The notes beneath the pieces are model-generated. The model did no database searches and was not told the origin of the DNA. It saw only the letters and a list, made by a program, of their open reading frames with translations. Below are positions 5,414 to 52,050 of a stretch of DNA of 64,000 nucleotides, piece after piece. Position numbers and translations under genes: made by a program. Every line of letters begins with the position of its first letter. Within the stretch, counting starts at the first letter, position 1. The stretch comes from Anolis carolinensis (lineage: Eukaryota): positions 264,646,525-264,710,524 of the forward strand of contig NC_085841.1 in the NCBI RefSeq assembly GCF_035594765.1, given 5' to 3'.

Positions 5414-5591
5414 CTAGTGTTTACATTTATCGAAGTTGCAGACACAGTCACCAAATATGATGATTTCTTTAACAAGTGGCTTCAGTGGGTCATCTGGGTC
5501 TGGGCAAGGCATCTTGAATTCCTTCCTGTAGAATGTTTGTGGCATGCAGCACCCACATTCCATGTCTACCGTCATCGTGGCAAGATTCGGT
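5414..5591 (-). CDS. MUC6: MUC6 terminal exon (CK domain C-half, stop TAG)
   Basis: cag acceptor 5592-5594; PNLATMTVDMECGCCMPQTFYRKEFKMPCPDPDDPLKPLVKEIIIFGDCVCNFDKCKH*. Confidence 0.93.
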
Positions 5592-8500
5592 CTGCAAAAG
5601 AGAGCAGTTTTGATTTAGAAATCCCATGCTGTATATGCATATGCTTATTTGTCATTAAAAAAACCAACAACAACAGATTGTTTCCCTGAGAGTAATAAAA
5701 TCCTCTAATCCCAACATGCCACTTATACCATTTGACATATTTGAATGCTCATGCCTGAGGATAAAAATACTATGTGTAGAAGCATAGTACTGAGAACACC
5801 ATGAGAGTTGTAGACTGAGCATCCCTTATCAAAAATGCTTAGGACCAAAAGAGTTTTTTTTTGAGATATTGAAATATCTATGGGTGTATACATACATCAT
5901 CATTATCATCATTGTTATTAATTAGATGTAATGGAGATGGGCCCCAAATCAAAACACAAAATTCACTTAGATTTTTCATAAGTGCCGTATACACATCTCC
6001 CTAAAGTAATTTTATACAAACTATTTTTTAATTTTGTACATGAAACAATGTCAGAATGCAAAGGTGTCACTATCAGTCATCAATGTGTACATAGTAGGAT
6101 TTTGGAAAATTTTGAGGTAAGGGTGTTATATCTGTATCAAAGTATTGTCGTAGGCTTGCACGGCCAGAATTACTGAGGTGTTGTGCAGTTTCCGGACAGC
6201 ATGGCCATGTTCTAGCAGCATTTTCTTTTGATGTTTTGCCTGCACCTGTGGCTGGCATCCTCAGAGGATTTTCAGAAAATGCCAGCTGCAGATGCAGGCA
6301 AAATGTCAGGAGAAAATGCTGCTAGAACACAGCCATGCAGCCCAGAAACCACACAACACCCCAGTATATTTAAAGTAAATTACAAGATTGAATTGTAACC
6401 TAAGACACCTCTTGGTTTCAAACAATTTTACTCTGTCATGGTGATACAGGAATATGGCATTTTTACACTGTATAGACCAGAGTTTCTCAAACAGCTCCTC
6501 CAGATGTTTTGGACTTCATCTTCCCCAATTCCCACAATTTATGTAAGCCTTGAGTCCCCTTCGGGGTAAAGAAAGGCAGGGTAGAAATAAAGTAAATAAA
6601 TAAATTCCTAACATCTGGTAAGCTGGCTAGGATGTCTGGGAGCTGAAATCCAAAACACCTGGAGGAGCACAGTTTGAGAAACACTGGTGTAGACACATCA
6701 CCTAAAACTACATTGCCACATCAGCATGATACAGATCCTTGAGGAACCCTACTGTTTTCTTTAATGCTGAGAACTGTATATTTTATATCACATAATGACA
6801 TAAACATAACTGGATCGAACAATTTGTCACAAGAGTCTTTCTTACGTGGCGGTTGATGGGCACAATCCTGCGCAGCGTGTCAATGTGACATTTGCAACAC
6901 AGCCCTTGTAGACTACTTGGTCGTCATACTCAATAGCATGACATGGGCCTGTGAAATAAAAAAAATGATTATAAAACCAATACTGGCAATGTACTGAATC
7001 GTCTTCTAGCAATTTAGATAATAGATTTTCTAATTCTTAATGACTTATACTAGCCACTACATGTAATAATTTTCAGGGGGATGAAAGAGGGGTGGCAAAT
7101 TTCTGTATTAAGAGCAGTGACTGTTTCACCCCCACCCCCATGATAAGCATAATTTTATTCAAATACAGCTCATGTCAGTTCTCTTGCCTTTATTCTAATT
7201 TTATTATTTGCATATGGGTCTTATGATATGTTTTTCTAATAGTTCATCCATAATTTTTTCTTGGTCATTTGGTGGTTTAAATTCTTTAAATGCAATACTT
7301 TTTTTAACATGTATCTTAATAAATGTAATAGCATCAATATTTTTTCAGCCATTGGTCCTTTTTCTTCCAACCTATTCTTCCAGTAAGTACTACATTTTAC
7401 TGGAGATGTATGGAAAATAATTTGAGCCATCTACTAGAGAAGGCAACTATTTTTCATTGTTAAAAAATATTTTGGCATGACATATAGGGGCAACAGAATT
7501 ATCTAACCTAACAGAATGATTGAGAAAAATATGGCAGACAGCTCTTTTCATGATGCTAACTTCCTCAAGTCGAGATCCTAGATAGGTTGGCGGAACATTA
7601 AGATCTGCCAAATATTACATCTAGCTTCATTTCAGGTGCTTGGATGTACAGTGTAAATATGTCACCCAAAGTGCCAAGGAATAGGTAGATGGTGTGTCAT
7701 GGCTGGAACTGCCACAGCTCAAGGGGGGTGGGCACGACTTCTAAGGTGGCTGTCCATGTTCGGCATAGCCGGCCAGAAGGGACTCGCTCCCACCTCTGAG
7801 ACAGTTAAGGGAATCCCAATGAAAACACCATGAAGCCATACCTGGTGTCTTGGATTGTCTGATAGGAGCTGTATTTTGAAAGGCCCATAGAAAACAAACA
7901 TTTTTATTCAAACTTTGAAATTAAGCCAGTAAATATTATATATTCTCTATGCTTATTGAGTGGAAACTAACCTGATGGTGGTGTTGAGCTTGGAGCAACA
8001 GTGGTTTGAGCTATAGTTGTTGGAGCAGTAGATTTGGTAGTGTGGATAGGCGAAGGAACTGACAAAATAAAAGAAAAGGTGTAAATAGGGAGTAAACCCT
8101 GTAACTATAAATGAATTAAAGTGATGAGCTTTCTGGTTAAAAAGTAACTCAGTGAGGAAACATCAACTTAATCAAAATGAGAGAAGAGAGGAAATGAACC
8201 AGAACAAAGACCATCCTCATTATTTCAGAGAAGAAAAGGAGGAATAATGTAAAGGCAAGAGCTACAGTAACTGGTCAAAGAAGCCTTGTAAGCTTCACCT
8301 TAAAAAGCAAACTAATAAGCAAAAGAACATGCTCAGAAATATCATTTATTGCCAAGGAACTTAATACTGTATTTGCTTTGACTCCTGAACTGAATTTTGT
8401 GAAGCAGGAAATTAGACATTACAAACAGTGGAAGGAAAGGAACAGATATGTTTATGGAATTGCCTGATGCTCACATCAAATTTAGTTTTGAACTTGAACC

Positions 8501-11500: not shown

Positions 11501-14500
11501 AGAGGAAGCAAAGAAGGAAAGAGAGAGCCATGTTGCCATGAAGGCATCATAATACTTTATCACAGCTGGAGAAGGGAGAAAGGTGAAGGGAATGAAAGGA
11601 AGGTAAGAGAAAGAAGAAAAAGAAACTGAAAGGAAGGAGAGGAGAGGGAGGGGGGAAAGAAAGAAAGAAAAATGAGGGAAGGAAGTTATAGGAAAGGAGA
11701 AGGGGAGGAAAGAAAGAGAAAGAAAGGATGAAAGCGGGTGGCAGTGGCCTTCTATGACACCTATGCAACAGTAGGGGCTGTGGGGCTGTTTAAGCCTTTC
11801 TCAAGGTGAAGCAAATGATATGTGACTGAGAGTTGTAGTAAATAATATGAAAATAGTGATTTGGCAATGTGAGGGGCAGTCTTGGGAATATTGATTTTCT
11901 TTTACTCTTTGAGTGCAATGGACTTAAAACTAAGTAGGAGAACTACCAGAAATTCATAATCCAGCCCAACAGTCCTTTTGCCAATCTGTGTTCTCTTCCA
12001 ATACAATCTCAGCTCCATTTAACCACAACAGAGCTGCCTTCATGGAGTTCTGAACTGGAAATTCCTTTTCTCTTTAATCACCAAATGGTCACCAACTCAG
12101 GGCTGATCTTGGGCAGGCAGTGCCAGCATTAATTTCTCTTCAATTATGAAAAGCCATATTTCACAAGAGAGGTAAAAAGAAATATGATAAAAGAGAAGCC
12201 AGGTGAAAATTGAGAGGTTTACCTGTAGGGGATTGTGTTGGAACGGTCGCAGTAGTTTTCGTAATTGCTGTTCCACAAGAGTAGAGAAAAAGAATATTGG
12301 TACTCAAGACAAATAAATAAGAAAGCATCCACACTAAAACTGAATCTTATTTTGAGAAAAGTATAAACTGAGCAAATATATGAAAGTCCCCAGGTTTATC
12401 CAACTTACAGGGATTTATCTTCTGTAAGCAGTGTAACGTATACGTATGTTTTGGGGTTTTTTTTCTTCATGTCAGGAGCAACTTGAGAAACTGCTAGTTG
12501 CTTTAGGTGTGAGAGAATTGGCAATCTGCAAGGACATTGCCTAGAGGACAACTAGATGTTTTACCATCATGTGGGAGGCTTCTCTCATGTCCTCACATGA
12601 GGAGCTCCTTGAAACAAATATCTTTAATAGGCATAAAGAGTGAGAATGCAGGCATATACGTTGCACTCTTCTTTCTTGCACTCTCTCTTTTTTCTCAGGA
12701 AAAAAGAAAAAGAAAACTATTTGATGAAATTATTCATTTTGATTCCTTTTTCTCAAAACAATTCACGAATGCAATAGTTCTCAACTTTTGACCCTTCAGT
12801 TATAGCAAAATCAAATATAATCTAGCAAAATTATTTGCTTCTATCTATTTTTATTAGAAAAAATTCTCTAACACAATGGTTTCCAGCCTTTGTACCTCCA
12901 GTCATTTTGGAGTTCAGCTCCCAGAATCTTTAGTAATTCATTGTTATAGCAGAGGAATCTGGAAGCTGAAGTCCAAAATTCTAGCAAAGCAAAGGTTGAA
13001 AACCACTACAACTGATGTCATAGTGGCGTAGTGGTTTCAGCATTGGACTTTGACTCTGTAAACCAGAGTTAAAATTATTGCTTAGCCACAGAAATCTGAG
13101 AGGTCACATGGAATGAATCCCACAAATTCAGGCCCAGAAAACCCTGTGATAGCATAATGACCTTCAAAAGTCACAAAATATACCCCCGCAAAAAAGCAGG
13201 AAGCCGTACCACTAGTAGAGTTGATGGTTGTAGTAGCCATAGTAGTAGAAGGTGGAGCGGAGGTAGTAGGAGCGGTAGATGCAGTAGTTATGGAGGTGAG
13301 TGTACTTAATGGAGAGCTGGTGGTTGTAGAGGTGGCAGTTATAGGCACTGAAAATGTAGGGATACTCGATATGGTTGTCTTAAAGGTGCTGATACTAGTA
13401 GGGAAACTTGAGGTACTGAGACTGATAGTGGTGGTTGCAGTGTGAGTCCCAACTGAAGTAGATTCAACAGAGGTAGGTGCAGAAGTAGTGGTAGGATGTT
13501 GCACAGGCTGAGGAGGAAAGGTTGTAGGTTTTGAAATGGTAAAAGTGGAAGGAGACCAAGTGGATGTAGAAGTGGCCTTTGAGGTGCTTGAAGATAAAGT
13601 AATTTTTGAAGTGGAAGAGACATGAGTACTTGAAGATATTCTTGTACTGCTGACTGTAGAAGTAAAGACAAAAGATAGGGAGATGAAGTCAACAAGAAAG
13701 CAAAATCTACACCATGAGCATGTACACAATATTGGACCATAAAGTTAGTAAAACATTACACAGGTTTTTAGTACAAGGAGGAAAACACATTTCTGGAAAA
13801 CAAAAAAGGCACAAATGTTTTGGAATACGGAGTCGAATACAGGGTTACCCATCTGGGAGGAACAGTGCAGGTGGCCCTCCAGGCTTTAGAAGGAGTCTAA
13901 AAATTTTCAAAACTATCATGAGGGGGGTAGGGACAGAACTCACATCTGACAATTTTGAGTCAGTTGGGAAAACTTACCTGTGGTGGTGACGGGGTGAGTT
14001 GTAGTCGAAGTTGTCGTTGTGGATGGAGGTGTGGTCGTTTCTGTGGTGGTTGGTGTAGTGGTGGTGGGAGTGGTGGTGCTTAGCGGAGTAGTATAGGTGA
14101 CTGTCGGCGTTGGCGTGGAGGAGACGGGTGTGGGTGTCGTCGGTGGCATCGGAGTGACGGTTGGCAAGGGGGTGATGGGTGATATTGTGGTAGTTGGGGT
14201 GTGCGTGCTTGTTGGAGTAGATTTGGTGGAGGTTGTGGTGGGGGTGGTTGGAGTGGTAGGGTGAGAGGTCGATGTGGTGGAGGGAGATGTGGTCCTGGTG
14301 GTGGGTTTGGGTGTTGTGGGGGTTGGGGTTGTCTTTGGCGTGCTGGCCGTGGACGACTCTGTGGACACAGTGGTTTTAGTAGTTGTGGAGGGTGAGGCGG
14401 TTGGTGTTGTTCTGGTTGTGGGGCTGGGAGAAGGCTTTCTTCTGGGTGTGGGGGCTGGAAAAGAAAAGAAAGAGGGAAGAGCTTTGAAGGCTTTGCAATA

Positions 14501-17500
14501 AGAAAGCACGGGCGTAGCAAATTAATAATTCTAACAAAAATAATAAAGATTGAGTCTTCATTTATATACTTTGTTATCTCCGAAAAGAGATTTATGGTGG
14601 TGAACAACAAAGTCAACAAATATTGAGAGTCAGGAAACATTCAAAAGAGAGGCAAATAAGGATACAGGGGACTTCCCTCCTGAGATAGGTCCTTACCTGG
14701 TGGGGTGTGTGTCGTGACGGTGCTGTGGGTTGTTTCTATAAAGGAAGGGGAAAGCGGATAGAAAAGTTAGAGAAACATAGGGGTGGCCATTAAGAAGAGC
14801 CAGGAGTGAGCCCACTGCAGTCCTGAGATGTGGGAGTCTCAGACCAGTTGGGTGAAGGCTGAGGTCCTGCCCGTGTTCCCCATTTGGGAGGAGCAGTGCA
14901 AAAGGCTTTAGAGGGAGTCCAAACGTTTCCAAAAATGTCATTAGGGGAGCAGGACGGGATTCCCATCTGACGGTACTGAATTGGTTGGGAAAACTTACCT
15001 GTGGTGGTGACGGGGTGAGTTGTAGTCGAAGTGGTCGTTGTGGATGGAGGCGTGGTCGTTTCCGTGGTGGTTGGTGTAGTGGTGGTGGGAGTGGTGGTGC
15101 TTAGCGGAGTAGTATAGGTGACTGTCGGCGTTGGCGTGGAGGAGACGGGTGTGGGTGTTGTCGGTGGCATCGGAGTGACGGTTGGCAAGGGGGTGATGGG
15201 CGATATTGTGGTAGTTGGGGTGTGCGTGCTTGTTGGAGTAGATTTGGTGGAGGTTGTGGTGGGGGTGGTTGGAGTGGTAGGGTGAGAGGTTGATGTGGTG
15301 GAGGGAGACGTGGTCTTGGTGGTGGGTTTGGATGTTGTGGGGGTTGGGGTTGTCTTTGGCGTGCTGGCCATGGACTCTGTGGACACAGTGGTTTTAGTAG
15401 TTGTGGAGGGTGAGGCGGTTGGTGTTGTTCTGGTTGTGGGGCTGGGAGAAGGCTTTGTTCTGGGTGTGGGGGCTGGAAAAGAAAAGAAAGAGGGAAGAGC
15501 TTTGAAGGCTTTGCAATAAGAAAGCACGGGCGTAGCAAATTAATAATTCTAACAAAAATAATAAAGATTGAGTCTTCATTTATATACTTTGTTATCTCCG
15601 AAAAGAGATTTATGGTGGTGAACAACAAAGTCAACAAATATTGAGAATCAGGAAACATTCAAAAGAGAGGCAAATAAGGATACAGGGGACTTCCCTCCTG
15701 AGATAGGTCCTTACCTGGTGGGGTGTGTGTCGTGACGGTGCTGTGGGTTGTTTCTATAAAGGATGGGGAAAGCGGATAGAAAAGTTAGAGAAACATAGGG
15801 GTGGCCATTAAGAAGAGCCAGGAGTGAGCCCACTGCAGTCCTGAGATGTGGGAGTCTCAGACCAGTTGGGTGAAGGCTGAGGTCCTGCCCGTGTTCCCCA
15901 TTTGGGAGGAGCAGTGCAAACGGCTTTAGAGGGAGTCCAAATGTTTCCAAAAATGTCATTAGGGGAGCAGGACGGGATTCCCATCTGACGGTAATGAATT
16001 GGTTGGGAAAACTTACCTGTGGTGGTGACGGGGTGAGTTGTAGTCGAAGTGGTCGTTGTGGATGGAGGCGTGGTCGTTTCCGTGGTGGTTGGTGTAGTGG
16101 TGGTGGGAGTGGTGGTGCTTAGCAGAGTAGTATAGGTGACTGTCGGCGTTGGCATGGAGGAGACGGGTGTGGGTGTCGTCGGTGGCATCGGAGTGACGGT
16201 TGGCAAGGGGGTGATGGGCGATATTGTGGTAGTTGGGGTGTGCGTGCTTGTTGGAGTAGATTTGGTGGAGGTTGTGGTGGGGGTGGTTGGAGTGGTAGGG
16301 TGAGAGGTCGATGTGGTGGAGGCAGACGTGGTCTTGGTGGTGGGTTTGGATGTTGTGGGGGTTGGGGTTGTCTTTGGCGTGCTGGCCGTGGACTCTGTGG
16401 ACACAGTGGTTTTAGTAGTTGTGGAGGGTGAGGCGGTTGGTGTTGTTGTGGTTGTGGGGCTGGGAGAAGGCTTTGTTCTGGGTGTGGGGGCTGGAAAAGA
16501 AAAGAAAGAGGGAAGAGCTTTGAAGGCTTTGCAATAAGAAAGCACGGGCGTAGCAAATTAATAATTCTAACAAAAATAATAAAGATTGAGTCTTCATTTA
16601 TATACTTTGTTATCTCCGAAAAGAGATTTATAGTGGTGAACAACAAAGTCAACAAATATTGAGAGTCAGGAAACATTCAAAAGAGAGGCAAATAAGGATA
16701 CAGGGGACCTCCCTCCTGAGATAGGTCCTTACCTGGTGGGGTGTGTGTAGTGACGGTGCTGTGGGTTGTTTCTATAAAGGAAGGGAAAAGCGGATAGAAA
16801 AGTTAGAGAAACGTAGGGGTGGCCATTAAGAAGAGCCAGGAGTGAGCCCACTGCAGTCCTGAGATGTGGGAGTCTCAGACCAGTTGGGTGAAGGCTGAGG
16901 TTCTGCCCGTGTTCCCCATTTGGGAGGAGCAGTGCAAACGGCTTTAGAGGGAGTCCAAATGTTTCCAAAAATGTCATGTGGGGAGCAGGACGGGATTCCC
17001 ATCTGACGGTACTGAATGGGTTGGGAAAACTTACCTGTGGTGGTGACAGGGTGAGTTGTAGTCGAAGTGGTCGTTGTGGATGGAGGCGTGGTCGTTTCCG
17101 TGGTGGTTGGTGTAGTGGTGGTGGGAGTGGTGGTGCTTAGCGGAGTGGTATAGGTGACTGTCGGCGTTGGCGTGGAGGAGACGGGTGTGGGTGTCGTCGG
17201 TGGCATCGGAGTGACGGTTGGCAAGGGGGTGATGGGTGATATTGTGGTAGTTGGGGTGTGCGTGCTTGTTGGAGTAGATTTGGTGGAGGTTGTGGTGGGG
17301 GTGGTTGGAGTGGTAGGGTGAGAGGTCGATGTGGTGGAGGGAGATGTGGTCCTGGTGGTGGGTTTGGGTGTTGTGGGGGTTGGGGTTGTCTTTGGCGTGC
17401 TGGCCGTGGACGACTCTGTGGACACAGTGGTTTTAGTAGTTGTGGAGGGTGAGGCGGTTGGTGTTGTTCTGGTTGTGGGGCTGGGAGAAGGCTTTCTTCT

Positions 17501-20500
17501 GGGTGTGGGGGCTGGAAAAGAAAAGAAAGAGTGAAGAGCTTTGAAGGCTTTGCAATAAGAAAGCACGGGCGTAGCAAATTAATAATTCTAACAAAAATAA
17601 TAAAGATTGAGTCTTCATTTATATACTTTGTTATCTCCGAAAAGAGATTTATGGTGGTGAACAACAAAGTCAACAAATATTGAGAGTCAGGAAACATTCA
17701 AAAGAGAGGCAAATAAGGATACAGGGGACTTCCCTCCTGAGATAGGTCCTTACCTGGTGGGGTGTGTGTCGTGACGGTGCTGTGGGTTGTTTCTATAAAG
17801 AAAGGGAAAAGCGGATAGAAAAGTTAGAGAAACGTAGGGGTGGCCATTAAGAAGAGCCAGGAGTGAGCCCACTGCAGTCCTGAGATGTGGGAGTCTCAGA
17901 CCAGTTGGGTGAAGGCTGAGGTCCTGCCCGTGTTCCCCATTTGGGAGGAGCAGTGCAAACGGCTTTAGAGGGAGTCCAAACGTTTCCAAAAATGTCATGA
18001 GGGGAGCAGGACGGGATTACCATCTGACGGTACTGAATGGGTTGGGAAAACTTACCTGTGGTGGTGACGGGGTGAGTTGTAGTCGACGTGGTCGTTGTGG
18101 ATGGAGGCGTGGTCGTTTCCGTGGTGGTTGGTGTAGTGGTGGTGGGAGTGGTGGTGCTTAGCGGAGTGGTATAGGTGACTGTCGGCGTTGGCGTGGAGGA
18201 GACGGGTGTGGGTGTCGTCGGTGGCATCGGAGTGACGGTTGGCAAGGGGGTGATGGGTGATATTGTGGTAGTTGGGGTGTGCGTGCTTGTTGGAGTAGAT
18301 TTGGTGGAGGTTGTGGTGGGGGTGGTTGGAGTGGTAGGGTGAGAGGTCGATGTGGTGGAGGGAGATGTGGTCCTGGTGGTGGGTTTGGGTGTTGTGGGGG
18401 TTGGGGTTGTCTTTGGCGTGCTGGCCGTGGACGACTCTGTGGACACAGTGGTTTTAGTAGTTGTGGAGGGTGAGGCGGTTGGTGTTGTTCTGGTTGTGGG
18501 GCTGGGAGAAGGCTTTGTTCTGGGTGTGGGGGCTGGAAAAGAAAAGAAAGAGGGAAGAGCTTTGAAGGCTTTGCAATAAGAAAGCACGGGCGTAGCAAAT
18601 TAATAATTCTAACAAAAATAATAAAGATTGAGTCTTCATTTATATACTTTGCTATCTCTGAAAAGAGATTTATAGTGGTGAACAACAAAGTCAACAAATA
18701 TTGAGAGTCAGGAAACATTCAAAAGAGAGGCAAATAAGGATACAGGGGACTTCCCTCCTGAGATAGGTCCTTACCTGGTGGGGTGTGTGTCGTGACGGTG
18801 CTGTGGGTTGTTTCTATAAAGGAAGGGAAAAGCGGATAGAAAAGTTAGAGAAACGTAGGGGTGGCCATTAAGAAGAGCCAGGAGTGAGCCCACTGCAGTC
18901 CTGAGATGTGGGAGTCTCGGACCAGTTGGGTGAAGGCTGAGGTCCTGCCCGTGTTCCCCATTTGGGAGGAGCAGTGCAAACGGCTTTAGAGGGAGTCCAA
19001 ACGTTTCCAAAAATGTCATGAGGGGAGCAGGACGGGATTCCCATCTGACGGTACTGAATGGGTTGGGAAAATTTACCTGTGGTGGTGACAGGGTGAGTTG
19101 TAGTCGAAGTGGTCGTTGTGGATGGAGGCGTGGTCGTTTCCGTGGTGGTTGGTGTAGTGGTGGTGGGAGTGGTGGTGCTTAGCGGAGTGGTATAGGTGAC
19201 TGTCGGTGTTGGCGTGGAGGAGACGGGTGTGGGTGTCGTCGGTGGCATCGGAGTGACGGTTGGCAAGGGGGTGATGGGTGATATTGTGGTAGTTGGGGTG
19301 TGCGTGCTTGTTGGAGTAGATTTGGTGGAGGTCGTGGTGGGGGTGGTTGGAGTGGTAGGGTGAGAGGTCGATGTGGTGGAGGGAGATGTGGTCCTGGTGG
19401 TGGGTTTGGGTGTTGTGGGGGTTGGGGTTGTCTTTGGCGTGCTGGCCGTGGACGACTCTGTGGACACAGTGGTTTTAGTAGTTGTGGAGGGTGAGGCGGT
19501 TGGTGTTGTTCTGGTTGTGGGGCTGGGAGAAGGCTTTCTTCTGGGTGTGGGGGCTGGAAAAGAAAAGAAAGAGTGAAGAGCTTTGAAGGCTTTGCAATAA
19601 GAAAGCACGGGCGTAGCAAATTAATAATTCTAACAAAAATAATAAAGATTGAGTCTTCATTTATATACTTTGTTATCTCCGAAAAGAGATTTATGGTGGT
19701 GAACAACAAAGTCAACAAATATTGAGAGTCAGGAAACATTCAAAAGAGAGGCAAATAAGGATACAGGGGACTTCCCTCCTGAGATAGGTCCTTACCTGGT
19801 GGGGTGTGTGTCGTGACGGTGCTGTGGGTTGTTTCTATAAAGAAAGGGAAAAGCGGATAGAAAAGTTAGAGAAACGTAGGGGTGGCCATTAAGAAGAGCC
19901 AGGAGTGAGCCCACTGCAGTCCTGAGATGTGGGAGTCTCAGACCAGTTGGGTGAAGGCTGAGGTCCTGCCCGTGTTCCCCATTTGGGAGGAGCAGTGCAA
20001 ACGGCTTTAGAGGGAGTCCAAACGTTTCCAAAAATGTCATGAGGGGAGCAGGACGGGATTCCCATCTGACGGTACTGAATGGGTTGGGAAAACTTACCTG
20101 TGGTGGTGATGGGGTGAGTTGTAGTCGACGTGGTCGTTGTGGATGGAGGCGTGGTCGTTTCCGTGGTGGTTGGTGTAGTGGTGGTGGGAGTGGTGGTGCT
20201 TAGCGGAGTGGTATAGGTGACTGTCGGCGTTGGCGTGGAGGAGACGGGTGTGGGTGTCGTCGGTGGCATCGGAGTGACGGTTGGCAAGGGGGTGATGGGT
20301 GATATTGTGGTAGTTGGGGTGTGCGTGCTTGTTGGAGTAGATTTGGTGGAGGTTGTGGTGGGGGTGGTTGGAGTGGTAGGGTGAGAGGTCGATGTGGTGG
20401 AGGGAGATGTGGTCCTGGTGGTGGGTTTGGGTGTTGTGGGGGTTGGGGTTGTCTTTGGCGTGCTGGCCGTGGACGACTCTGTGGACACAGTGGTTTTAGT

Positions 20501-29500: not shown

Positions 29501-32500
29501 TAGTTGGGGTGTGCGTACTTGTTGGAGTAGATTTGGTGGAGGTTGTGGTAGGGGTGGTTGGAGTGGTAGGGTGAGAGGTCGATGTGGTGGAGGGAGATGT
29601 GGTCCTGGTGGTGGGTTTGGGTGTTGTGGGGGTTGGGGTTGTCTTTGGCGTGCTGGCCGTGGACGACTCTGTGGACACAGTGGTTTTAGTAGTTGTGGAG
29701 GGTGAGGCGGTTGGTGTTGTTCTGGTTGTGGGGCTGGGAGAAGGCTTTGTTCTGGGTGTGGGGGCTGGAAAAGAAAAGAAAGAGGGAAGAGCTTTGAAGG
29801 CTTTGCAATAAGAAAGCACGGGCATAGCAAATTAATAATTCTAACAAAAACAATAAAGATTGAGTCTTCATTTATATACTTTGTTATCTCCGAAAAGGGA
29901 TTTATGGTGGTGAACAACAAAGTCAACAAATATTGAGAATAAGGAAACATTCAAAAGAGAGGCAAATAAGGATACAGGGGACTTCCCTCCTGAGATAGGT
30001 CCTTACCTGGTGGGGTGTGTGTAGTGACGGTGCTGTGGGTTGTTTCTATAAAGGAAGGGGAAAGCGGATAGAAAAGTTAGAGAAACATAGGGGTGGCCAT
30101 TAAGAAGAGCCAGGAGTGAGCCCACTGCAGTCCTGAGATGTGGGAGTCTCAGACCAGTTGGGTGAAGGCTGAGGTCCTGCCCGTGTTCCCCATTTGGGAG
30201 GAGCAGTGCAAACGGCTTAAGAGGGAGTCCAAACAATTCCAAAAATGTCATGAGGGGAGCAGGACGGGATTCCCATCTGACGGTACTGAATGGGTTGGGA
30301 AAACTTACCTGTGGTGGTGACGGGGTGAGTTGTAGTCGAAGTGGTCGTTGTGGATGGAGGCGTGGTTGTTTCCGTGGTGGTTGGTGTAGTGGTGGTGGGA
30401 GTGGAGGTGCTTAGCGGAGTGGTATAGGTGACTGTCGGCGTTGGCGTGGAGGAGACGGGTGTGGGTGTCGTCGGTGGCATCGGAGTGACGGTTGGCAAGG
30501 GGGTGATGGGCGATATTGTGGTAGTTGGGGTGTGCGTGCTTGTTGGAGTAGATTTGGTGGAGGTTGTGGTGGGGGTGGTTGGAGTGGTAGGGTGAGAGGT
30601 CGATGTGGTGGAGGGAGATGTGGTCCTGGTGGTGGGTTTGGGTGTTGTGGGGGTTGGGGTTGTCTTTGCCGTGCTGGCCGTGGACGACTCTGTGGACACA
30701 GTGGTTTTAGTAGTTGTGGAGGGTGAGGCGGTTGGTGTTGTTCTGGTTGTGGGGCTGGGAGAAGGCTTTGTTCTGGGTGTGGGGGCTGGAAAAGAAAAGA
30801 AAGAGGGAAGAGCTTTGAAGGCTTTGCAATAAGAAAGCACGGGCATAGCAAATTAATAATTCTAACAAAAACAATAAAGATTGAGTCTTCATTTATATAC
30901 TTTGTTATCTCCGAAAAGGGATTTATGGTGGTGAACAACAAAGTCAACAAATATTGAGAATCAGGAAACATTCAAAAGAGAGGCAAATAAGGATACAGGG
31001 GACTTCCCTCCTGAGATAGGTCCTTACCTGGTGTGGTGTGTGTCGTGACGGTGCTGTGGGTTGTTTCTATAAAGGAAGGGAAAAGCGGATAGAAAAGTTA
31101 GAGAAACGTAGGGGTGGCCATTAAGAAGAGCCAGGAGTGAGCCCACTGCAGTCCTGAGATGTGGGATTCTCAGACCAGTTGGGTGAAGGCTGAGGTCCTG
31201 CCCGTGTTCCCCATTTGGGAGGAGCAGTGCAAACGGCTTTAGAGGGAGTCCAAACGTTTCCAAAAATGTCATTAGGGGAGCAGGACGGGATTCCCATCTG
31301 ATGGTACTGAATGGGTTGGGAAAACGTACCTGTGGTGGTGACGGGGTGAGTTGTAGTCGAAGTGGTCATTGTGGATGGAGGCGTGGTCGTTTCCGTGGTG
31401 GTTGGTGTAGTGGTGGTGGGAGTGGTGGCGCTTCGCGGAGTAGTATAGGTGACTGTCGGCGTTGGCGTGGAGGAGACGGGTGTGGGTGTCGTCGGTGGCA
31501 TCGGAGTGACGGTTGGCAAGGGGGTGATGGGCGATATTGTGGTAGTTGGAGTGTGCGTGCTTGTTGGAGTAGATTTGGTGGAGGTTGTGATGGGGGTGGT
31601 TGGAGTGGTAGGGTGAGAGGTCGATGTGGTGGAGGGAGATGTGGTCTTGGTGGTGGGTTTGGGTGTTGTGGGGGTTGGGGTTGTCTTTGGCGTGCTGGCC
31701 GTGGACGACTCTGTGGACACAGTGGTTTTAGTAGTTGTGGAGGGTGAGGCGGTTGGTGTTGTTCTGGTTGTGGGGCTGGGAGAAGGCTTTGTTCTGGGTG
31801 TGGGGGCTGGAAAAGAAAAGAATGAGGGAAGAGCTTTGAAGGCTTTGCAATAAGAAAGCACGGGCATAGCAAATTAATAATTCTAACAAAAATAATAAAG
31901 ATTGAGTCTTCATTTATATACTTTGTTATCTCCGAAAAGGGATTTATGGTGGTGAACAACAAAGTCAACAAATATTGAGAATCAGGAAACATTCAAAAGA
32001 GAGGCAAATAAGGATACAGGGGACTTCCCTCCTGAGATAGGTCCTTACCTGGTGGGGTGTGTGTCGTGACGGTACTGTGGGTTGTTTCTATAAAGGAAGG
32101 AAAAAGCGGATAGAAAAGTTAGAGAAACGTAGGGGTGGCCATTAAGAAGAGCCAGGAGTGAGCCCACTGCAGTCCTGAGATGTGGGAGTCTCAGACCAGT
32201 TGGGTGAAGGCTGAAGTCCTGCCCGTGTTCCCCATTTGGGAGGAGCAGTGCACACGGCTTTAGAGGGAGTCCAAACGTTTCCAAAAATGTCATGAGGGGA
32301 GCAGGACGGGATTCCCATCTGACGGTACTGAATGGGTTGGGAAAACTTACCTGTGGTGGTGACGGGGTGAGTTGTAGTCGAAGTGGTCGTTGTGGATGGA
32401 GGCGTGGTCGTTTCCGTGGTGGTTGGTGTAGTGGTGGTGGGAGTGGTGGTGCTTAGCGGAGTGGTATAGGTGACTGTAGGCGTTGCCGTGGAGGAGACGG

Positions 32501-35500
32501 GTGTGGGTGTCGTCGGTGGCATCGGAGTGACGGTTGGCAAGGGGGTGATGGGCGATATTGTGGTAGTTGGGGTGTGCGTGCTTGTTGGAGTAGATTTGGT
32601 GGAGGTTGTGGTGGGGGTGGTTGGAGTGGTAGGGTGAGAGGTCGATGTGGTGGAGGGAGATGTGGTCCTGGTGGTGGGTTTGGGTGTTGTGGGGGTTGGG
32701 GTTGTCTTTGGCGTGCTGGCCGTGGACGACTCTGTGGACACAGTGGTTTTAGTAGTTGTGGAGGGTGAGGCGGTTGGTGTTGTTCTGGTTGTGGGGCTGG
32801 GAGAAGGCTTTGTTCTGGGTGTGGGGGCTGGAAAAGAAAAGAAAGAGGGAAGAGCTTTGAAGGCTTTGCAATAAGAAAGCACGGGCATAGCAAATTAATA
32901 ATTCTAACAAAAACAATAAAGATTGAGTCTTCATTTATATACTTTGTTATCTCCGAAAAGGGATTTATGGTGGTGAACAACAAAGTCAACAAATATTGAG
33001 AATCAGGAAACATTCAAAAGAGAGGCAAATAAGGATACAGAGGACTTCCCTCCTGAGATAGGTCCTTACCTGGTGTGGTGTGTGTCGTGACGGTGCTGTG
33101 GGTTGTTTCTATAAAGGAAGGGAAAAGCGGATAGAAAAGTTAGAGAAACGTAGGGGTGGCCATTAAGAAGAGCCAGGAGTGAGCCCACTGCAGTCCTGAG
33201 ATGTGGGAGTCTCAGACCAGTTGGGTGAAGGCTGAGGTCCTGCCCGTGTTCCCCATTTGGGAGGAGCAGTGCAAACGGCTTTAGAGGGAGTCCAAACGTT
33301 TCCAAAAATGTCATTAGGGGAGCAGGACGGGATTCCCATCTGATGGTACTGAATGGGTTGGGAAAACGTACCTGTGGTGGTGACGGGGTGAGTTGTAGTC
33401 GAAGTGGTCATTGTGGATGGAGGCGTGGTCGTTTCTGTGGTGGTTGGTGTAGTGGTGGTGGGAGTGGTGGCGCTTCGCGGAGTAGTATAGGTGACTGTCG
33501 GCGTTGGCGTGGAGGAGACGGGTGTGGGTGTCGTCGGTGGCATCGGAGTGACGGTTGGCAAGGGGGTGATGGGCGATATTGTGGTAGTTGGAGTGTGCGT
33601 GCTTGTTGGAGTAGATTTGGTGGAGGTTGTGATGGGGGTGGTTGGAGTGGTAGGGTGAGAGGTCGATGTGGTGGAGGGAGATGTGGTCTTGGTGGTGGGT
33701 TTGGGTGTTGTGGGGGTTGGGGTTGTCTTTGGCGTGCTGGCCGTGGACGACTCTGTGGACACAGTGGTTTTAGTAGTTGTGGAGGGTGAGGCGGTTGGTG
33801 TTGTTCTGGTTGTGGGGCTGGGAGAAGGCTTTGTTCTGGGTGTGGGGGCTGGAAAAGAAAAGAATGAGGGAAGAGCTTTGAAGGCTTTGCAATAAGAAAG
33901 CACGGGCATAGCAAATTAATAATTCTAACAAAAATAATAAAGATTGAGTCTTCATTTATATACTTTGTTATCTCCGAAAAGAGATTTATGGTGGTGAACA
34001 ACAAAGTCAACAAATATTGAGAATCAGGAAACATTCAAAAGAGAGGCAAATAAGGATACAGGGGACTTCCCTCCTGAGATAGGTCCTTACCTGGTGGGGT
34101 GTGTGTCGTGACGGTACTGTGGGTTGTTTCTATAAAGGAAGGAAAAAGCGGATAGAAAAGTTAGAGAAACGTAGGGGTGGCCATTAAGAAGAGCCAGGAG
34201 TGAGCCCACTGCAGTCCTGAGATGTGGGAGTCTCAGACCAGTTGGGTGAAGGCTGAAGTCCTGCCAGTGTTCCCCATTTGGGAGGAGCAGTGCACACGGC
34301 TTTAGAGGGAGTCCAAACGTTTCCAAAAATGTCATGAGGGGAGCAGGACGGGATTCCCATCTGACGGTACTGAATGGGTTGGGAAAACTTACCTGTGGTG
34401 GTGACGGGGTGAGTTGTAGTCGAAGTGGTCGTTGTGGATGGAGGCGTGGTCGTTTCCGTGGTGGTTGGTGTAGTGGTGGTGGGAGTGGTGGTGCTTAGCG
34501 GAGTGGTATAGGTGACTGTAGGCGTTGCCGTGGAGGAGACGGGTGTGGGTGTCGTCGGTGGCATCGGAGTGACGGTTGGCAAGGGGGTGATGGGCGATAT
34601 TGTGGTAGTTGGGGTGTGCGTGCTTGTTGGAGTAGATTTGGTGGAGGTTGTGGTGGGGGTGGTTGGAGTGGTAGGGTGAGAGGTCGATGTGGTGGAGGGA
34701 GATGTGGTCCTGGTGGTGGGTTTGGGTGTTGTGGGGGTTGGGGTTGTCTTTGGCGTGCTGGCCGTGGACGACTCTGTGGACACAGTGGTTTTAGTAGTTG
34801 TGGAGGGTGAGGCGGTTGGTGTTGTTCTGGTTGTGGGGCTGGGAGAAGGCTTTGTTCTGGGTGTGGGGGCTGGAAAAGAAAAGAAAGAGGGAAGAGCTTT
34901 GAAGGCTTTGCAATAAGAAAGCACGGGCATAGCAAATTAATAATTCTAACAAAAACAATAAAGATTGAGTCTTCATTTATATACTTTGTTATCTCCGAAA
35001 AGGGATTTATGGTGGTGAACAACAAAGTCAACAAATATTGAGAATCAGGAAACATTCAAAAGAGAGGCAAATAAGGATACAGAGGACTTCCCTCCTGAGA
35101 TAGGTCCTTACCTGGTGTGGTGTGTGTCGTGACGGTGCTGTGGGTTGTTTCTATAAAGGAAGGGAAAAGCGGATAGAAAAGTTAGAGAAACGTAGGGGTG
35201 GCCATTAAGAAGAGCCAGGAGTGAGCCCACTGCAGTCCTGAGATGTGGGAGTCTCAGACCAGTTGGGTGAAGGCTGAGGTCCTGCCCGTGTTCCCCATTT
35301 GGGAGGAGCAGTGCAAACGGCTTTAGAGGGAGTCCAAACGTTTCCAAAAATGTCATTAGGGGAGCAGGACGGGATTCCCATCTGATGGTACTGAATGGGT
35401 TGGGAAAACTTACCTGTGGTGGTGACGGGGTGAGTTGTAGTCGAAGTGGTCATTGTGGATGGAGGCGTGGTCGTTTCTGTGGTGGTTGGTGTAGTGGTGG

Positions 35501-38500
35501 TGGGAGTGGTGGCGCTTCGCGGAGTAGTATAGGTGACTGTCGGCGTTGGCGTGGAGGAGACGGGTGTGGGTGTCGTCGGTGGCATCGGAGTGACGGTTGG
35601 CAAGGGGGTGATGGGCGATATTGTGGTAGTTGGAGTGTGCGTGCTTGTTGGAGTAGATTTGGTGGAGGTTGTGATGGGGGTGGTTGGAGTGGTAGGGTGA
35701 GAGGTCGATGTGGTGGAGGGAGATGTGGTCTTGGTGGTGGGTTTGGGTGTTGTGGGGGTTGGGGTTGTCTTTGGCGTGCTGGCCGTGGACGACTCTGTGG
35801 ACACAGTGGTTTTAGTAGTTGTGGAGGGTGAGGCGGTTGGTGTTGTTCTGGTTGTGGGGCTGGGAGAAGGCTTTGTTCTGGGTGTGGGGGCTGGAAAAGA
35901 AAAGAATGAGGGAAGAGCTTTGAAGGCTTTGCAATAAGAAAGCACGGGCATAGCAAATTAATAATTCTAACAAAAATAATAAAGATTGAGTCTTCATTTA
36001 TATACTTTGTTATCTCCGAAAAGAGATTTATGGTGGTGAACAACAAAGTCAACAAATATTGAGAATCAGGAAACATTCAAAAGAGAGGCAAATAAGGATA
36101 CAGGGGACTTCCCTCCTGAGATAGGTCCTTACCTGGTGGGGTGTGTGTCGTGACGGTACTGTGGGTTGTTTCTATAAAGGAAGGAAAAAGCGGATAGAAA
36201 AGTTAGAGAAACGTAGGGGTGGCCATTAAGAAGAGCCAGGAGTGAGCCCACTGCAGTCCTGAGATGTGGGAGTCTCAGACCAGTTGGGTGAAGGCTGAAG
36301 TCCTGCCAGTGTTCCCCATTTGGGAGGAGCAGTGCACACGGCTTTAGAGGGAGTCCAAACGTTTCCAAAAATGTCATGAGGGGAGCAGGACGGGATTCCC
36401 ATCTGACGGTACTGAATGGGTTGGGAAAACTTACCTGTGGTGGTGACGGGGTGAGTTGTAGTCGAAGTGGTCGTTGTGGATGGAGGCGTGGTCGTTTCCG
36501 TGGTGGTTGGTGTAGTGGTGGTGGGAGTGGTGGTGCTTAGCGGAGTGGTATAGGTGACTGTAGGCGTTGCCGTGGAGGAGACGGGTGTGGGTGTCGTCAA
36601 TGGCATAGGAGTGACCGTTGGCAAGGGGGTGATGGGCGATATTGTGGTAATTGGGGTGTGCGTGCTTGTTGGAGTAGATTTGGTGGAGGTTGTGGTGGGG
36701 GTGGTTGGAGTGGTAGGGTGAGAGGTCGATGTGGTGGAGGGAGATGTGGTCCTGGTGGTGGGTTTGGGTGTTGTTGGGGTTGGGGTTGTCTTTGGCGTGC
36801 TGGCTGTGGACGATTCTGTGGACACAGTGGATTTAGTAGTTGTGGAGGGTGAGGCGGTTGGTGTTGTTCTGGGTGTGGGACTGGGAGGAGTCTTTGTTCT
36901 GGATGTGGGGCCTGGAAAAGAAAAGAAAGAGCGAAGAGCTTTGAAGGCTTTGCAATAAGAAAGCATGGGAGACGCAAAATAATAAATAAATAAATAAATA
37001 AATAATTGAACTTTATTTATCTACTTTCCTATCTCCCCAAACTGATTCAGGTTGTGAATAACAAAGTCAACAAACATTGAAAGTCAGGAAACTTTCTACA
37101 GAGTGGCAAATCAGGACAAAGGAGACTCTCCTCCCGATACAGGTCTTTACCTGATGGGGTGTGTGTTGTGATTTTGTGGTGGGTTGTTTCTTTATATGAA
37201 CAGAAAAGCAGATCGAAAATGCAGGGTGGCAATAAAGGAGAGCCAGGAATTACCCCACTGCAATCCTGAGATATGGGTATCTCGGGCCAGTTAGGTAAAT
37301 GCTGAGGTCCTGCCCAGGCTCTCAATTTGGAAGGAGCCATGCAGATGGCTTTAGAGAGAGTCCAAACGTTTTCAGAAATATCATGAGTGGGGCAGGGATG
37401 GTATTCCCATCTGACCGTATTGTGTTGTTTGGGAAAACTTACCTGTGGTAGTGACAGGGTGAGTTGTAGCTGAAGTGGTTGTTGTCGATGGAGGCGTGGT
37501 CGTTTCCGTGGTGGTGGGTGATGTGGTGGTGGGAGTGCTGGTGGGTTTAGGTGTTGTGGGGGTGTGGGTTGTCTTTGGCGTGCTGGCCGTGGACAATTCT
37601 GTGGACATAGTGGTTTTTGTGGTTGTAGGGGGTGTCGTGGTTGCTGTTGTTCTCAGTGTGGTGCTTGGAGGAGGCCGTGTTCTGGGTTCCGGTGCTAAAA
37701 ACGACAAAAAAGTTGGAAGAGTGGTGAAGGATGTGAGGTTAGAATTGGAAAATCAAAAGAGAGAGAAGTCAGGCCAAAGAGGACTGACAGATGTCTTTAC
37801 CTGGTGGGCTGTGTGTCGTGATTGTGCTGGTGCTTCGTGTTTTTTCTGCAACGGGAAGAACACAGGAAATTAAATTTAGAAAAATGTGAGGATGGGAATT
37901 AAGCAGAGCCAGGTCTAAACCCGCCTTCCGAAGATGTGGGGGTTTCAGGAAAATTACTTAATTGGCAACTTGCAATGTTAGGAATTAACAAAGTATGTTA
38001 TAAAAATTCTTTAGAAAAGTGCAACATTTTGCCATGCTAACCATTCAAATATGGTTATTTACCAGAAGTGGTCACAATGGTTATTATCTGATGAGATGTA
38101 GTGGATGGAGTAGCAGTCTCTGTAACACTGTGGGTAGAAGTTATTGGAACCGTGCTTGGAGTTGTTTCTGTAGTTGGTGTAGTACTGGACTGAATAATTT
38201 TAGATGTGCTTGAAGTATCTGATTCTGTTGATACAGTAATTCTTGAGGTTGTGGATAGTGAACTGGTTGCTGTTGTTTTCGGTGTGCTTGTGGAATGCCG
38301 TGTTTCTGGAGTAGTTCTAGCTGAAAAAAAAGGCCCAGTGGTTATCTGGACAGTTGTTTGAGAAGGGGAAAGCCAAAAGAAGGTTGGCCAGTTGAACCAT
38401 TTTGTTCATACTTCCAGATTCAAATACTTACGCTGAGATGTTGAGGTTGAGACTACAGTGGTAGTTTGTGTTGCTGTAATAGAAAAATGAAGTATTAAAA

Positions 38501-41500: not shown

Positions 41501-44500
41501 TTTTTTTTTTACTGTATCAAAAGCCTTCTATGATCAGACCTATCCATCTCATTCATGTAAGACTAAAACTAGGACTCGTAAGCTAAAAGGTATCATGCAA
41601 TTTTAGCGTACATTTGAAAACATTGTACTCACCTGTTGGTGTCGGTGTCAATGTTGGTGTGGGTGTTGGTGGTGTAATACCTGAAAGATAAATATGTGAG
41701 AATAATGTGGAATACACACTGTTTTATAATATTAAGGGTTTGGAGGACAAAAGTATCCACTATTTTATTTTCTTTATGTGTGTGATTTAATGGCAGGAGA
41801 CTATTGGAAAATATCATATGCTGTTAATTGAAAAAGTACAGAAAATTGTGGTTAGCCATATAAACAAAGGTTATATAGTTTCTCTATGCAGAAGAAGAAG
41901 AGAGGTCATCAGTAGTGACCAACTAATTGTTGGTGGTATTGTTAGGGTAAGCTGTGTTTAAATAATTTATAAACAATACTGTACCAACTTTTCCTTGATG
42001 AGGATTTCTTGATTTTAACAAATGATATTTATTTCCATCATTTTTTCCCATTATTTCTATCCCACCCTTCTCACCTGAAGGGACTCAGGGCGGCTTATAT
42101 CCTTTGTCTTATCTTTTTTGTAATTCTGTGATGAAAGCAGTTGCTTGCTTACAAAAACATAAGCAAGAATACTAAGTCCTATACAAATGGAGAAGTGTTT
42201 AGCTACTAGAAAATGTTTTTCATAAACATGGATACATTTTCAATGTTTTAAGGACTGTGTGATTACCTTTTTACTGTAATGTATACAGCAGTGTCTTAAA
42301 ATGCAAGTCTGCAAGACTTGAGAAGCACTTATGATAAATGGGTAATTTAGAAATTTCTCATTCATGGGATCCCCACAAGTTGATTTCAACTTGATGATAT
42401 TTGACAACAATGACTTAAATCACTATAATGGATACTACACTTCTTATAGTGCAGCAAATTGTACTGCTTGCTTGCTTGATTTGATTTCCCAAACTTTTCT
42501 CAATATGAGATCTAAAGCTGTTTATAATATGAAATAAACATAATAGCAAAAACAAAACATAAGACTAGATAAAATAAATATTCAATTAAATTAAAACATC
42601 AATTTAAATACTAGATGCATATCCCTCTTCAATATGACTTTTTGGTGCTTAATATTAGGATCAAAACCCATCCTTTGTCTAAAGTAAACTTGATTGCAAA
42701 AGAAGGCTGCAATCATATTAATTTTATGCACAGTAAGGAAAATTTTATTTACTTTGTTTCTACCCCATTCTAACTCACCCGGAGGGAAAAAAAAGTCCCA
42801 GTGGAATCGGTAAACAAGAATATAATTGACTTGCAAATGCATTTTCTAAGTTCTAGAATTATTCCAAGCAAGATATCTGAAAGTGAATGTTTTTCCTTAC
42901 CACAGGGCACACAGGACTTTGTTTTAGGATTATAGTATTCATCCCCTGAGCAGTTGTAACATCCTGTGAGTAAGGAAAAAATACATTTATTGTCCAGAAG
43001 GCATGCAGCAAATATTTTATGTAGATTTAAGGATCAGAAAAAGATTCAATAAAGCCCACTTTCCATTTGTAAAGACATACTGAAGATCTAAAGATACATG
43101 TTTTCAAGCATGCAAATTTAGTCCCATTTTTTCTATGAAACATATAAAAGTTTTTAAAGCATCTTATCCACTTTCCCCTAGCTTCCTGGACATATTTGGA
43201 TGGAACAGGATAAATAGTATATGAACCCCATATCAGTAGGAGATATGTATCTGGATTTTGCATGGATATGTGAAACTGTAGATAATAGTGAAAGTTATCA
43301 TTTTCAATAAGGCAAATGGCAGATGTGTTGAGAAGAGGGCATAGGTTGCATGGAAAATCCTGAGTGAATAATTGAAACCACATACATTGGTTCCATGGAT
43401 ATGGGGTCATTCAGTATTTTTTTTAAAAAACTGTAATTTTATTTAATTATTTTGTCTATGAATTAGTAAGGAAGGCATGGTGACATCTTCTCAAGACAAA
43501 GAGTGAATCAAAGGTTTAATTTCCTGCATTTCAGATCATAGTCTCACACTCTGTTTGAAAGTAGTAGTTGAATAAGAACAAAACAAAATAGGCTTCTGGT
43601 TCATAATGAGAGATGTGAGGGGAAATCTGACTAAATGATTTGTTTTCAACAAAATAGTCTGAAGAGAGTTGATTCACTCTGCGGCTTCTCACAATCAGCA
43701 CAAGAAAGATATAATGGTATTGAGATCTCTGCAATTAATATATTGCATCAAAATGAACAGGACAAAAAGACTGAGGGCAGAAATACTTAAGAGAAGAATT
43801 GTTAGACAATTTTGAACTGATATTAAGTTGACAGTGAATAGTTTCAACATGTTGCCTGCCAGCAGCCAAAATTATATTTGAAAGACTTCCATGCACAATT
43901 CTTTGTTGTTGCTTAAACAATTATCCAATCTGAGTTTGCATTTTTAAAAGAAAAATAAAGATTGTTACCTTCAATATTGACACCTACTGATGTTGACATG
44001 TTTAGACATTTACAGGGCCGATAATGCCAGGTGCAATTTAATTCATTAACGTAATAATAATAGGTGCCAACCATGCCACTCTTCTTATGGGAGTTGAAGT
44101 AGTCACAATAAACAGCTAAGATAGAAGAGAATGTGATTGTTACTATGAATATTACATTAGTCAAAGACAAAACACTAAATCAAAAACATGAAGAAAGCAT
44201 GCTGTTGAAACATCTTCATCCTTCATCATCGGACACATTGGCAAGGGCTAATGAGAAAGAGATCAACAACATCTGGAATCCAAGAAATTCATGTTTGTTG
44301 TCCTTAACAGAAGACAAGTTACCTATGGTCTAATTGTTCATCACTACAATCTTTTCACCAGATAGCACTAATAAGCTTTTGAGACATACAAGAGATCTTT
44401 AGGACATAGTTTCAAAATATTGCTCTAAACACATACTAAATATTTCTCTTTTAGTTTCTGAAACAAGCAAACTTAAAAAGTATCATCTAGTTCTGCATAT

Positions 44501-52014: not shown

Positions 52015-52050
<36 letters not shown>

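What the first reader, a model, noticed from the sequence alone, without database searches (positions are those of the whole stretch)
7972..41680. All 54 PTS exons are symmetric phase 1-1: a possible splice-tunable mucin length system
Seen: every predicted PTS exon (39, 42, 45, 48, 87, 252, 258, 444, 474 or 477 nt) is a multiple of 3 and bounded by phase-1 introns, totalling 13,083 nt (~4,360 aa). Any subset can be skipped or duplicated without frameshift. Inference: one allele could yield a ladder of mucin lengths by exon skipping, which a single-exon VNTR cannot do. Repeated identical introns could also favour circular or mis-ordered splice products.
Basis: partly seen in the sequence, partly recalled or inferred. 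Interest (0 to 1): 0.75.

Follow-up and report, generated by a model that had tools for sequence, protein, structure and literature searches.

The report
Lizard stomach mucin in 54 pieces
The green anole's mucin-6 gene splits its sugar-bearing backbone into 54 frame-preserving exons where humans use one giant exon, and public transcript assemblies show at least one exon skipped in frame, but the 23-fold repeat likely changes length mainly by DNA duplication rather than by a splicing ladder.

Summary
Observation confirmed exactly: 54 PTS exons, 13,083 nt, all 3n and phase 1-1. They join 14 D-domain and 2 cystine-knot exons into one open frame of 5,120 aa. The gene is Anolis carolinensis MUC6; the RefSeq model (1,278 aa) stops after the first PTS exon. 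The symmetry is not 54 independent facts. Forty-six exons are 23 copies of one 1,021-bp unit (two exons, two introns), and 49 descend from one module. Any exon added between D3 and the knot must be 1-1. Contigs from public runs (RNA by guess, but spliced at GT-AG) show the 39-nt exons spliced in. They also show the unique 444-nt exon both included and skipped, the skip in two studies. Whole-unit skipping was neither seen nor excludable with short-read contigs. Nothing supports circular RNA. The idea is in print for chicken Muc13 (PMC1552070). New variant of a known kind: a multi-exon MUC6 with one shown in-frame cassette; the ladder remains unproven.

The parts
42901..62819 (-). 14 exons of the MUC6 D2-D3 region inside the window (62819-62658 to 42963-42901); mixed intron phases; last exon ends in phase 1
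   Evidence: the 666-aa chain is found letter for letter in P0001 (mucin-6, A. carolinensis)
41633..41680 (-). PTS exon, 48 nt, phase 1-1; the RefSeq model reads through its donor and stops
38432..38473 (-). PTS exon, 42 nt
   Evidence: included by length in X7; the following 111-nt intron is unspliced in an X15 contig
38063..38320 (-). PTS exon, 258 nt, old homologue of the long array exon
   Evidence: acceptor used in X7 contig 16
37801..37845 (-). PTS exon, 45 nt, homologue of the short array exon (predicted; no spliced cover)
37443..37694 (-). PTS exon, 252 nt, homologue of the long array exon (predicted; no spliced cover)
13978..37189 (-). Array of 23 units of about 1,021 bp: 39-nt exon, 242-nt intron, 477/474-nt exon, 263-nt intron; 516 coding nt (172 aa) per unit; first unit diverged
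   Evidence: 23 hits at this locus only; short-long and long-short joints in contigs
13210..13653 (-). Unique 444-nt PTS cassette exon, alternatively spliced; weakest donor of the 54 (5 of 9 consensus letters)
   Evidence: skip joint 13978-12267 in X7 and X11, exon-bearing contig with flanks in X7
12223..12267 (-). PTS exon, 45 nt
   Evidence: joints on both sides in X7 and X11
7972..8058 (-). Last PTS exon, 87 nt
   Evidence: joints on both sides in X7 and X11
5414..6948 (-). Two cystine-knot exons (6948-6846, 5591-5414 to the stop), directly after the PTS region with no fourth D domain
   Evidence: weak Pfam Cys_knot hit below cut-off; 49% identity to the chicken MUC6 C-terminus

Best explanation
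This is the anole MUC6 gene, whose PTS backbone is 23 near-identical copies of a two-exon unit plus eight other exons, all phase 1-1; the array likely grew by unequal crossing-over of whole exon-intron units and is likely spliced mostly in full, while the unique 444-nt exon is both included and skipped in frame. Shown: the exon anatomy, the single open frame, short-exon inclusion, and two isoforms at the 444-nt exon. Inferred: PTS exons arose inside a phase-1 intron between D3 and the cystine knot, so each had to be 1-1 to keep the knot in frame. One short+long pair was then amplified with its introns. Large length differences would therefore be allelic, as in human MUC6, with splicing adding a modest step of 148 aa at the weak-donor exon. 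The full form would be about 5,700 aa, and every in-frame skip product would keep both polymerising ends.
For: Introns are as alike between units (97.9%) as exons (98.3%), and there are two-unit higher-order blocks (units 2/4/6 and 3/5 differ by 1-4 letters), as expected of DNA-level duplication. A dispersed-repeat relic sits in the same intron of all 23 units. In 20 long exons there are 17 synonymous and 16 non-synonymous variants, pN/pS 0.42, p=0.01, so the copies are under coding constraint. Array donors match 8-9 of 9 consensus letters in 45 of 46 exons, with acceptor pyrimidine share 0.85-1.0; the 444-nt exon's donor matches 5 of 9. X7 contigs give short-to-long and long-to-short joints at depth 332; X6 also shows short-to-long (2.87). 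The X7 path is nearest internal units 15, 16 and 20. Skip of the 444-nt exon at GT-AG ends appears in 2 of 4 runs laid, from two studies (X7 82, X11 4.83). Inclusion appears in X7 (503-nt contig, exon plus 29-30 letters each side, depth 12.5); X3 has a contig that leaves the genome at that donor. A. sagrei gene models carry the same short and long pieces.
Against: Short-read contigs cannot see whole-unit skipping: long exon n to short exon n+k gives the regular junction, and 100 of 231 such 150-nt junctions also occur in the full mRNA. The last 30 nt of the long exon are the same in 19 of 23 units, so the joints to the 444- and 45-nt exons could come from almost any unit. 76 and 75 further joints were not shown. 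Array depth in X7 (332) is below the 558 that a crude decay model gives for 23 units and fits about 13-14, though contig depth cannot be used quantitatively. Five units have weaker long-exon donors (3 GTAAAT, 2 GTACGT). No run is on record as RNA, and tissues are unknown.
Confidence: 0.66

Rival explanations
1. Splice-tuned ladder: a sizeable share of transcripts from one allele skip whole 516-nt units or leave the array early for the 444- or 45-nt exon, giving mucins of many lengths, perhaps set by tissue.
For: The anatomy permits it. One PTS exon is skipped. The exit joint cannot be assigned to unit 23. Array depth is below the crude 23-unit expectation. Five units have weaker donors. Frog FIM-C.1 is described as highly polymorphic by alternative splicing (PMC7177656, one passage).
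Against: No long-to-long or short-to-short joint among the 15+15 rows shown. Splice sites are strong and introns are 242-263 nt; that such short introns favour pairing across the intron and little skipping is recalled, not tested. Array depth is about 3.5 times the 3' flank and 44 times the 5' flank in X7, so many units per transcript is the simpler reading (weak). Symmetry is explained by origin alone.
Confidence: 0.22
2. The 444-nt skip is not a regulated choice but splicing noise or an allele effect at a decaying exon with a weak donor; mucin length is set by DNA alone.
For: Weak donor. No homology of this exon to the array module. The runs come from different animals, and no DNA run was laid on this stretch.
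Against: Both forms occur in one run (X7) and the skip recurs in a second study. The exon is open over 147 codons. This rival differs from the best explanation only on whether the skip matters.
Confidence: 0.08
3. Identical introns drive circular or mis-ordered splice products.
For: A 'goes back 779' joint at depth 332 in X7.
Against: That joint is what regular tandem units give when laid on a single unit. None of 8 inverted pairs of 20 nt or more has an arm in the array; two weak pairs (22-23 nt, 78-86%) flank the whole block. That back-splicing is favoured by inverted, not direct, repeats is recalled.
Confidence: 0.02
4. The array or its exons are an assembly or prediction artefact.
For: An older gene model (P0095) holds one unit only, unit 1's long exon followed by unit 23's flank. 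Some units are nearly identical.
Against: 21 of 23 spliced units are distinct. A DNA run covers the unit at depth 125-142 against 8-13 on single-copy contigs. Spliced joints match the predicted sites exactly. An A. sagrei model holds four repeat copies. The exact copy number may still be off.
Confidence: 0.02

Closest known systems
Human MUC6 (exon 31 VNTR)
   Same: Orthologous layout D1-D2-D3, PTS, cystine knot. Similar scale: 24 units, mostly 507 bp (169 aa), in the allele of PMC6269512 (passages), against 23 units of 516 coding nt (172 aa) here. Edge units are more diverged here, as reported for several human mucins (PMC13345508, passage).
   Different: The human repeat lies in one 12,294-bp exon; here each unit is two exons with two introns. 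Homology of the repeat units themselves was not tested.
Chicken Muc13 multi-exon PTS (Lang et al. 2006, PMC1552070, main text read)
   Same: PTS repeats on separate near-identical exons; the authors propose length control by alternative splicing within one individual.
   Different: Membrane mucin, one 20-aa repeat per exon, at least 12 repeats, and the splicing idea is raised only as a possibility. Here it is a gel-forming mucin with a two-exon unit and an observed in-frame skip.
Xenopus tropicalis Otogl (PMC5789918, passages)
   Same: Gel-forming-type mucin with a multi-exon central domain (34 PTS repeats).
   Different: PTS repeats are mixed with Cys-rich repeats; not a MUC6 orthologue; no PTS skipping in the passages seen.
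Xenopus laevis FIM-C.1 and FIM-B.1 skin mucins
   Same: [quoted passage not shown] A 1990s report of alternative splicing of repetitive units in FIM-B.1 is recalled only; searches did not find it.
   Different: Different proteins; there the splice variation is the reported rule, here it is shown for one exon only.
Chicken MUC2 (Jiang et al. 2013, PMC3549977, passages and one section)
   Same: PTS repeats span exons 32-45; one in-frame 495-nt PTS deletion isoform was found.
   Different: PTS is interspersed with CysD domains; the isoform uses internal splice sites; no massive alternative splicing was detected.

Membership tests
MUC6 gel-forming mucin | Three VWD-C8-TIL units at the N-terminus | tested here: met
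   3 VWD, 3 C8, 3 TIL stretches in P0001, whose residues 581-1246 are the window's exon chain
MUC6 gel-forming mucin | PTS region followed directly by a cystine knot, no fourth VWD, no CysD | tested here: met
   Spliced joint from the 87-nt exon to the knot exon; no Cys in the 4,360-aa PTS; 49% identity to the chicken MUC6 end. The Pfam Cys_knot hit is below cut-off (E 0.028).
MUC6 gel-forming mucin | Closest sequence relatives are MUC6 proteins | tested here: met
   93 hits; every one with a specific name is mucin-6 or MUC6, the rest are hypothetical, uncharacterized or unnamed; 100% to A. carolinensis mucin-6. No tree was built.
MUC6 gel-forming mucin | Lies next to, and opposite in direction to, MUC2/MUC5 genes | tested here: inconclusive
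   A CysD-like+PTS mucin lies on the opposite strand about 145 kb beyond the window; it was not typed as MUC2 or MUC5, and the DNA between was not read.
Single-exon mucin VNTR (mammalian type) | Repeats in one large exon | tested here: not met
   46 exons; stops in every intron; spliced joints
Multi-exon PTS mucins (chicken Muc13, Xenopus Otogl type) | PTS repeats encoded on many frame-preserving exons | tested here: met
Splice-polydisperse mucins (FIM-C.1 type) | In-frame alternative splicing of PTS exons | tested here: met
   444-nt exon included and skipped
Splice-polydisperse mucins (FIM-C.1 type) | Variable number of repeat units among transcripts of one allele | not testable with these tools
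   Only short-read contigs were served; unit skips mimic regular junctions.

The most novel reading that the evidence does not exclude
One anole MUC6 allele yields a ladder of gel mucins from about 1,500 to 5,700 aa: the spliceosome leaves the array at any unit for the 444- or 45-nt exon, or skips units, and tissues set the rung, tuning the spacing between the polymerising ends without any DNA change.
Probability: 0.2. Interest if true: 0.72.

Novelty: new variant of a known kind. Interest (0 to 1): 0.45.

Why it matters
It gives a clean test of a 2006 proposal that multi-exon mucin domains let one individual vary mucin length by splicing: the array is fully assembled, 21 of 23 units are distinguishable, and one in-frame skip is already visible. 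It also shows the same gene reaching nearly the same design (about 23-24 units of about 170 aa) with and without introns in lizard and human. Practically, current protein models of this gene (1,211-1,596 aa) miss about 4,000 aa or more.

Tried and rejected
No RNA holder was listed on record. 7 of the 24 listed runs were laid (X3, X6, X7, X9, X11, X15, X16; X7 twice). X9 gave next to no cover on the 5' stretch, X16 behaved as DNA, and X3, X6 and X15 showed much unspliced cover. The exons at 37845-37151 had no spliced cover in X7, X9 or X15, which is no evidence either way. Depth arithmetic (model; X16 ratio of about 13-14 against 17 expected for 23 units, my own division) is kept as a weak hint only, since contig depth is not a copy number or expression measure. 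The 'goes back' joint was rejected as evidence of circles. My first D-exon chain had one acceptor off by a base and was corrected. Alternative acceptors and donors from the scan (for example a 513-nt version of the long exon) were dropped because the RNA joints use the 477-nt sites. Weak alignments of the long exon to Rhineura MUC6 (z 7) and read-through ends of other squamate models are low-complexity hints and were not counted as evidence of exon structure. PMC2042186 was not held. Earlier-findings look-ups returned nothing. Paper searches listed no paper on lizard MUC6 exon structure; the library holds only open-licence PMC and bioRxiv, and supplements and the mucin web databases cited in PMC1552070 and PMC4948705 were not seen.
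Full report
Identity. The window holds the 3' two thirds of a gel-forming mucin gene on the minus strand. A D-region exon matches von Willebrand factor and MUC2/5AC/5B chains in the PDB and is 100% identical to A. carolinensis mucin-6, XP_062822100.1, among 93 hits whose specific names are all MUC6. That protein has three VWD-C8-TIL units. After the PTS exons come two exons 49% identical, over the last one, to the chicken MUC6 end, with no fourth D domain. A CysD-like+PTS mucin lies on the opposite strand about 145 kb away, as in the MUC6/MUC2 cluster described in PMC1552070. The RefSeq model reads through the donor of the first PTS exon and stops at 1,278 aa. An older model holds a single repeat unit. 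The full frame predicts about 5,700 aa.

The observation. All numbers check: 54 exons, 13,083 nt, each a multiple of 3, each between AG and GT, open in the phase-1 frame. With 14 D-region and 2 knot exons they give 5,120 codons and one stop. In the D region only 3 of 14 exons are 1-1, so the pattern is specific to the PTS block and its two upstream neighbours. It is still not 54 coincidences. Forty-six exons are 23 copies of a 1,021-bp unit (39-nt exon, 242-nt intron, 477-nt exon, 263-nt intron). The 45-, 252- and 258-nt exons just upstream are older copies of the same pair, with homologous introns (z 6-34 for exons, 13-132 for introns). That leaves seven exon types and eight independent introns; all phase 1 has p of 1e-4 to 1e-3. 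The ordinary explanation is origin: an exon that appears in a phase-1 intron upstream of an essential knot must be 1-1 (inference). Runs of symmetric exons in disordered regions, often from tandem duplication, are a known genome-wide trend (PMC3632108, passages).

How the array grew. Among units 2-22, introns are 97.9% alike and exons 98.3%. Units 2/4/6 and 3/5 form an alternating block differing by 1-4 letters, and the first unit is the most diverged. One intron carries a relic of a dispersed repeat in all 23 units. This is duplication of DNA, introns included. Variants in 20 long exons give pN/pS 0.42 (17 synonymous, 16 non-synonymous; p=0.01). A. sagrei models contain the 48-, 45- and long-exon peptides in order, and, in a shifted frame, four long-exon repeats with three short-exon pieces, each directly after a long-exon end. 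The design is therefore likely shared by both anoles; these are gene models, not RNA evidence.

Splicing evidence. Twenty-four runs were listed, none on record as RNA; seven were laid as assembled contigs. X7 behaves as spliced RNA, with joints at GT-AG ends and mostly empty introns. It shows knot-to-knot, 87-to-knot and 45-to-87 joints (depth 111), short-to-long and long-to-short joints (332), and a D3 exon joined to the 258-nt exon with 90 letters between, the sum of the 48- and 42-nt exons. So the short exons are spliced in. It also shows the long exon joined straight to the 45-nt exon, skipping the 444-nt exon (depth 82), beside a contig holding the 444-nt exon with 29-30 letters on each side (12.5). 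The loose ends at the long-exon donor are a letter-by-letter mix of exactly these two targets (30 of 30). X11, another study, shows the same skip (4.83); X3, a third, has a contig leaving the genome at the 444-nt exon's donor; X6 showed neither. That donor is the weakest of the 54 (5 of 9 consensus letters). In-frame PTS skipping is thus real here, but it moves 148 of 4,361 residues. Depths hint that skipping is the commoner form in X7, but contig depth cannot quantify this.

What was not seen. No long-to-long or short-to-short joint is among the 15 rows shown in each call; 76 and 75 rows were hidden and contigs drop rare forms. Whole-unit skipping is largely invisible to such data: 100 of 231 skip junctions equal a regular junction over 150 nt, and 19 of 23 long exons share their last 30 nt, so the exits from the array cannot be assigned to unit 23. 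A crude model with 3'-biased decay from 95 to 7.5 predicts array depth 558 for 23 units and 311 for 13, against 332 seen. This fits many units per transcript and does not separate full inclusion, a shorter allele and partial skipping. For circles, the repeats are direct, no inverted pair touches the array, and the 'goes back' joint is the expected image of tandem units on one copy.

Mechanism and odds. Most likely (0.66) the array is a DNA-level variable repeat that happens to carry introns, is spliced mostly in full through strong sites and short introns, and has a true cassette at its 3' edge. A real unit ladder gets about 0.2. Pure noise at the 444-nt exon, circles and artefact share the rest.

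Known and new. Lang et al. 2006 (PMC1552070, main text read) described a multi-exon PTS in chicken Muc13 and proposed length control by splicing within an individual; their chicken Muc6 had a gap in this region. Xenopus Otogl is multi-exonic (PMC5789918), FIM-C.1 is splice-polymorphic (PMC7177656) and chicken MUC2 has an in-frame PTS deletion isoform (PMC3549977), all seen as passages. Human MUC6 keeps 24 units of mostly 507 bp in one exon (PMC6269512, passages). PMC4948705 and PMC13345508 (passages) gave nothing on lizard MUC6 exons. Nine searches listed no account of this gene's structure, within a library that lacks most subscription papers. New here: a MUC6 orthologue with a two-exon repeat unit, missed by annotation, and direct evidence of one in-frame PTS cassette. 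Verdict: new variant of a known kind, interest 0.45.

Noticed in passing
window 8475-8897 (- strand): An X11 contig (depth 9.4) runs through this intronic stretch and leaves the genome at a GTGAGC donor at 8474, with 30 letters lying elsewhere. If joined to the 87-nt exon it ends in an in-frame stop: a possible poison or alternative exon. The partner was not shown.
   Followed up: partly
window 38321-38431: The 111-nt intron between the 42- and 258-nt exons is unspliced in an X15 contig whose upstream exons are spliced. It holds an in-frame stop, so retention would give a knot-less form or decay; it may be a splicing intermediate.
   Followed up: partly
window 13978-37189: Unit size and number (23 x 172 aa) are close to human MUC6 (24 x mostly 169 aa) despite opposite exon designs; common origin or a length constraint is untested.
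   Followed up: no
L001 1106-1840, 4366-5586, 7884-8663 (G000:C1:264851000-264860999): The neighbouring mucin has repeated CysD-like+PTS exons; two end at phase-1 donors, so phase-1 modules may be general in this cluster.
   Followed up: partly
window 41586-41680 and P0001, P0094, P0095, P0096: Public models of anole MUC6 are truncated, collapsed to one unit, or read the repeats in a shifted His/Asn-rich frame.
   Followed up: yes
window long-exon donors of units 4, 6, 13, 16, 18: Five units carry variant donors (GTACGT at 33372 and 31330; GTAAAT at 24182, 21119, 19077): first candidates for unit-specific skipping.
   Followed up: no
P0003 residues 1214-1245: The A. sagrei model goes from the 48-nt-like piece straight to the 45-nt-like piece, with nothing like the 42- and 258-nt exons; absent, skipped or unannotated.
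   Followed up: no
window 55635-55807: Degenerate 21/60-bp tandem repeat in a D-region intron.
   Followed up: no
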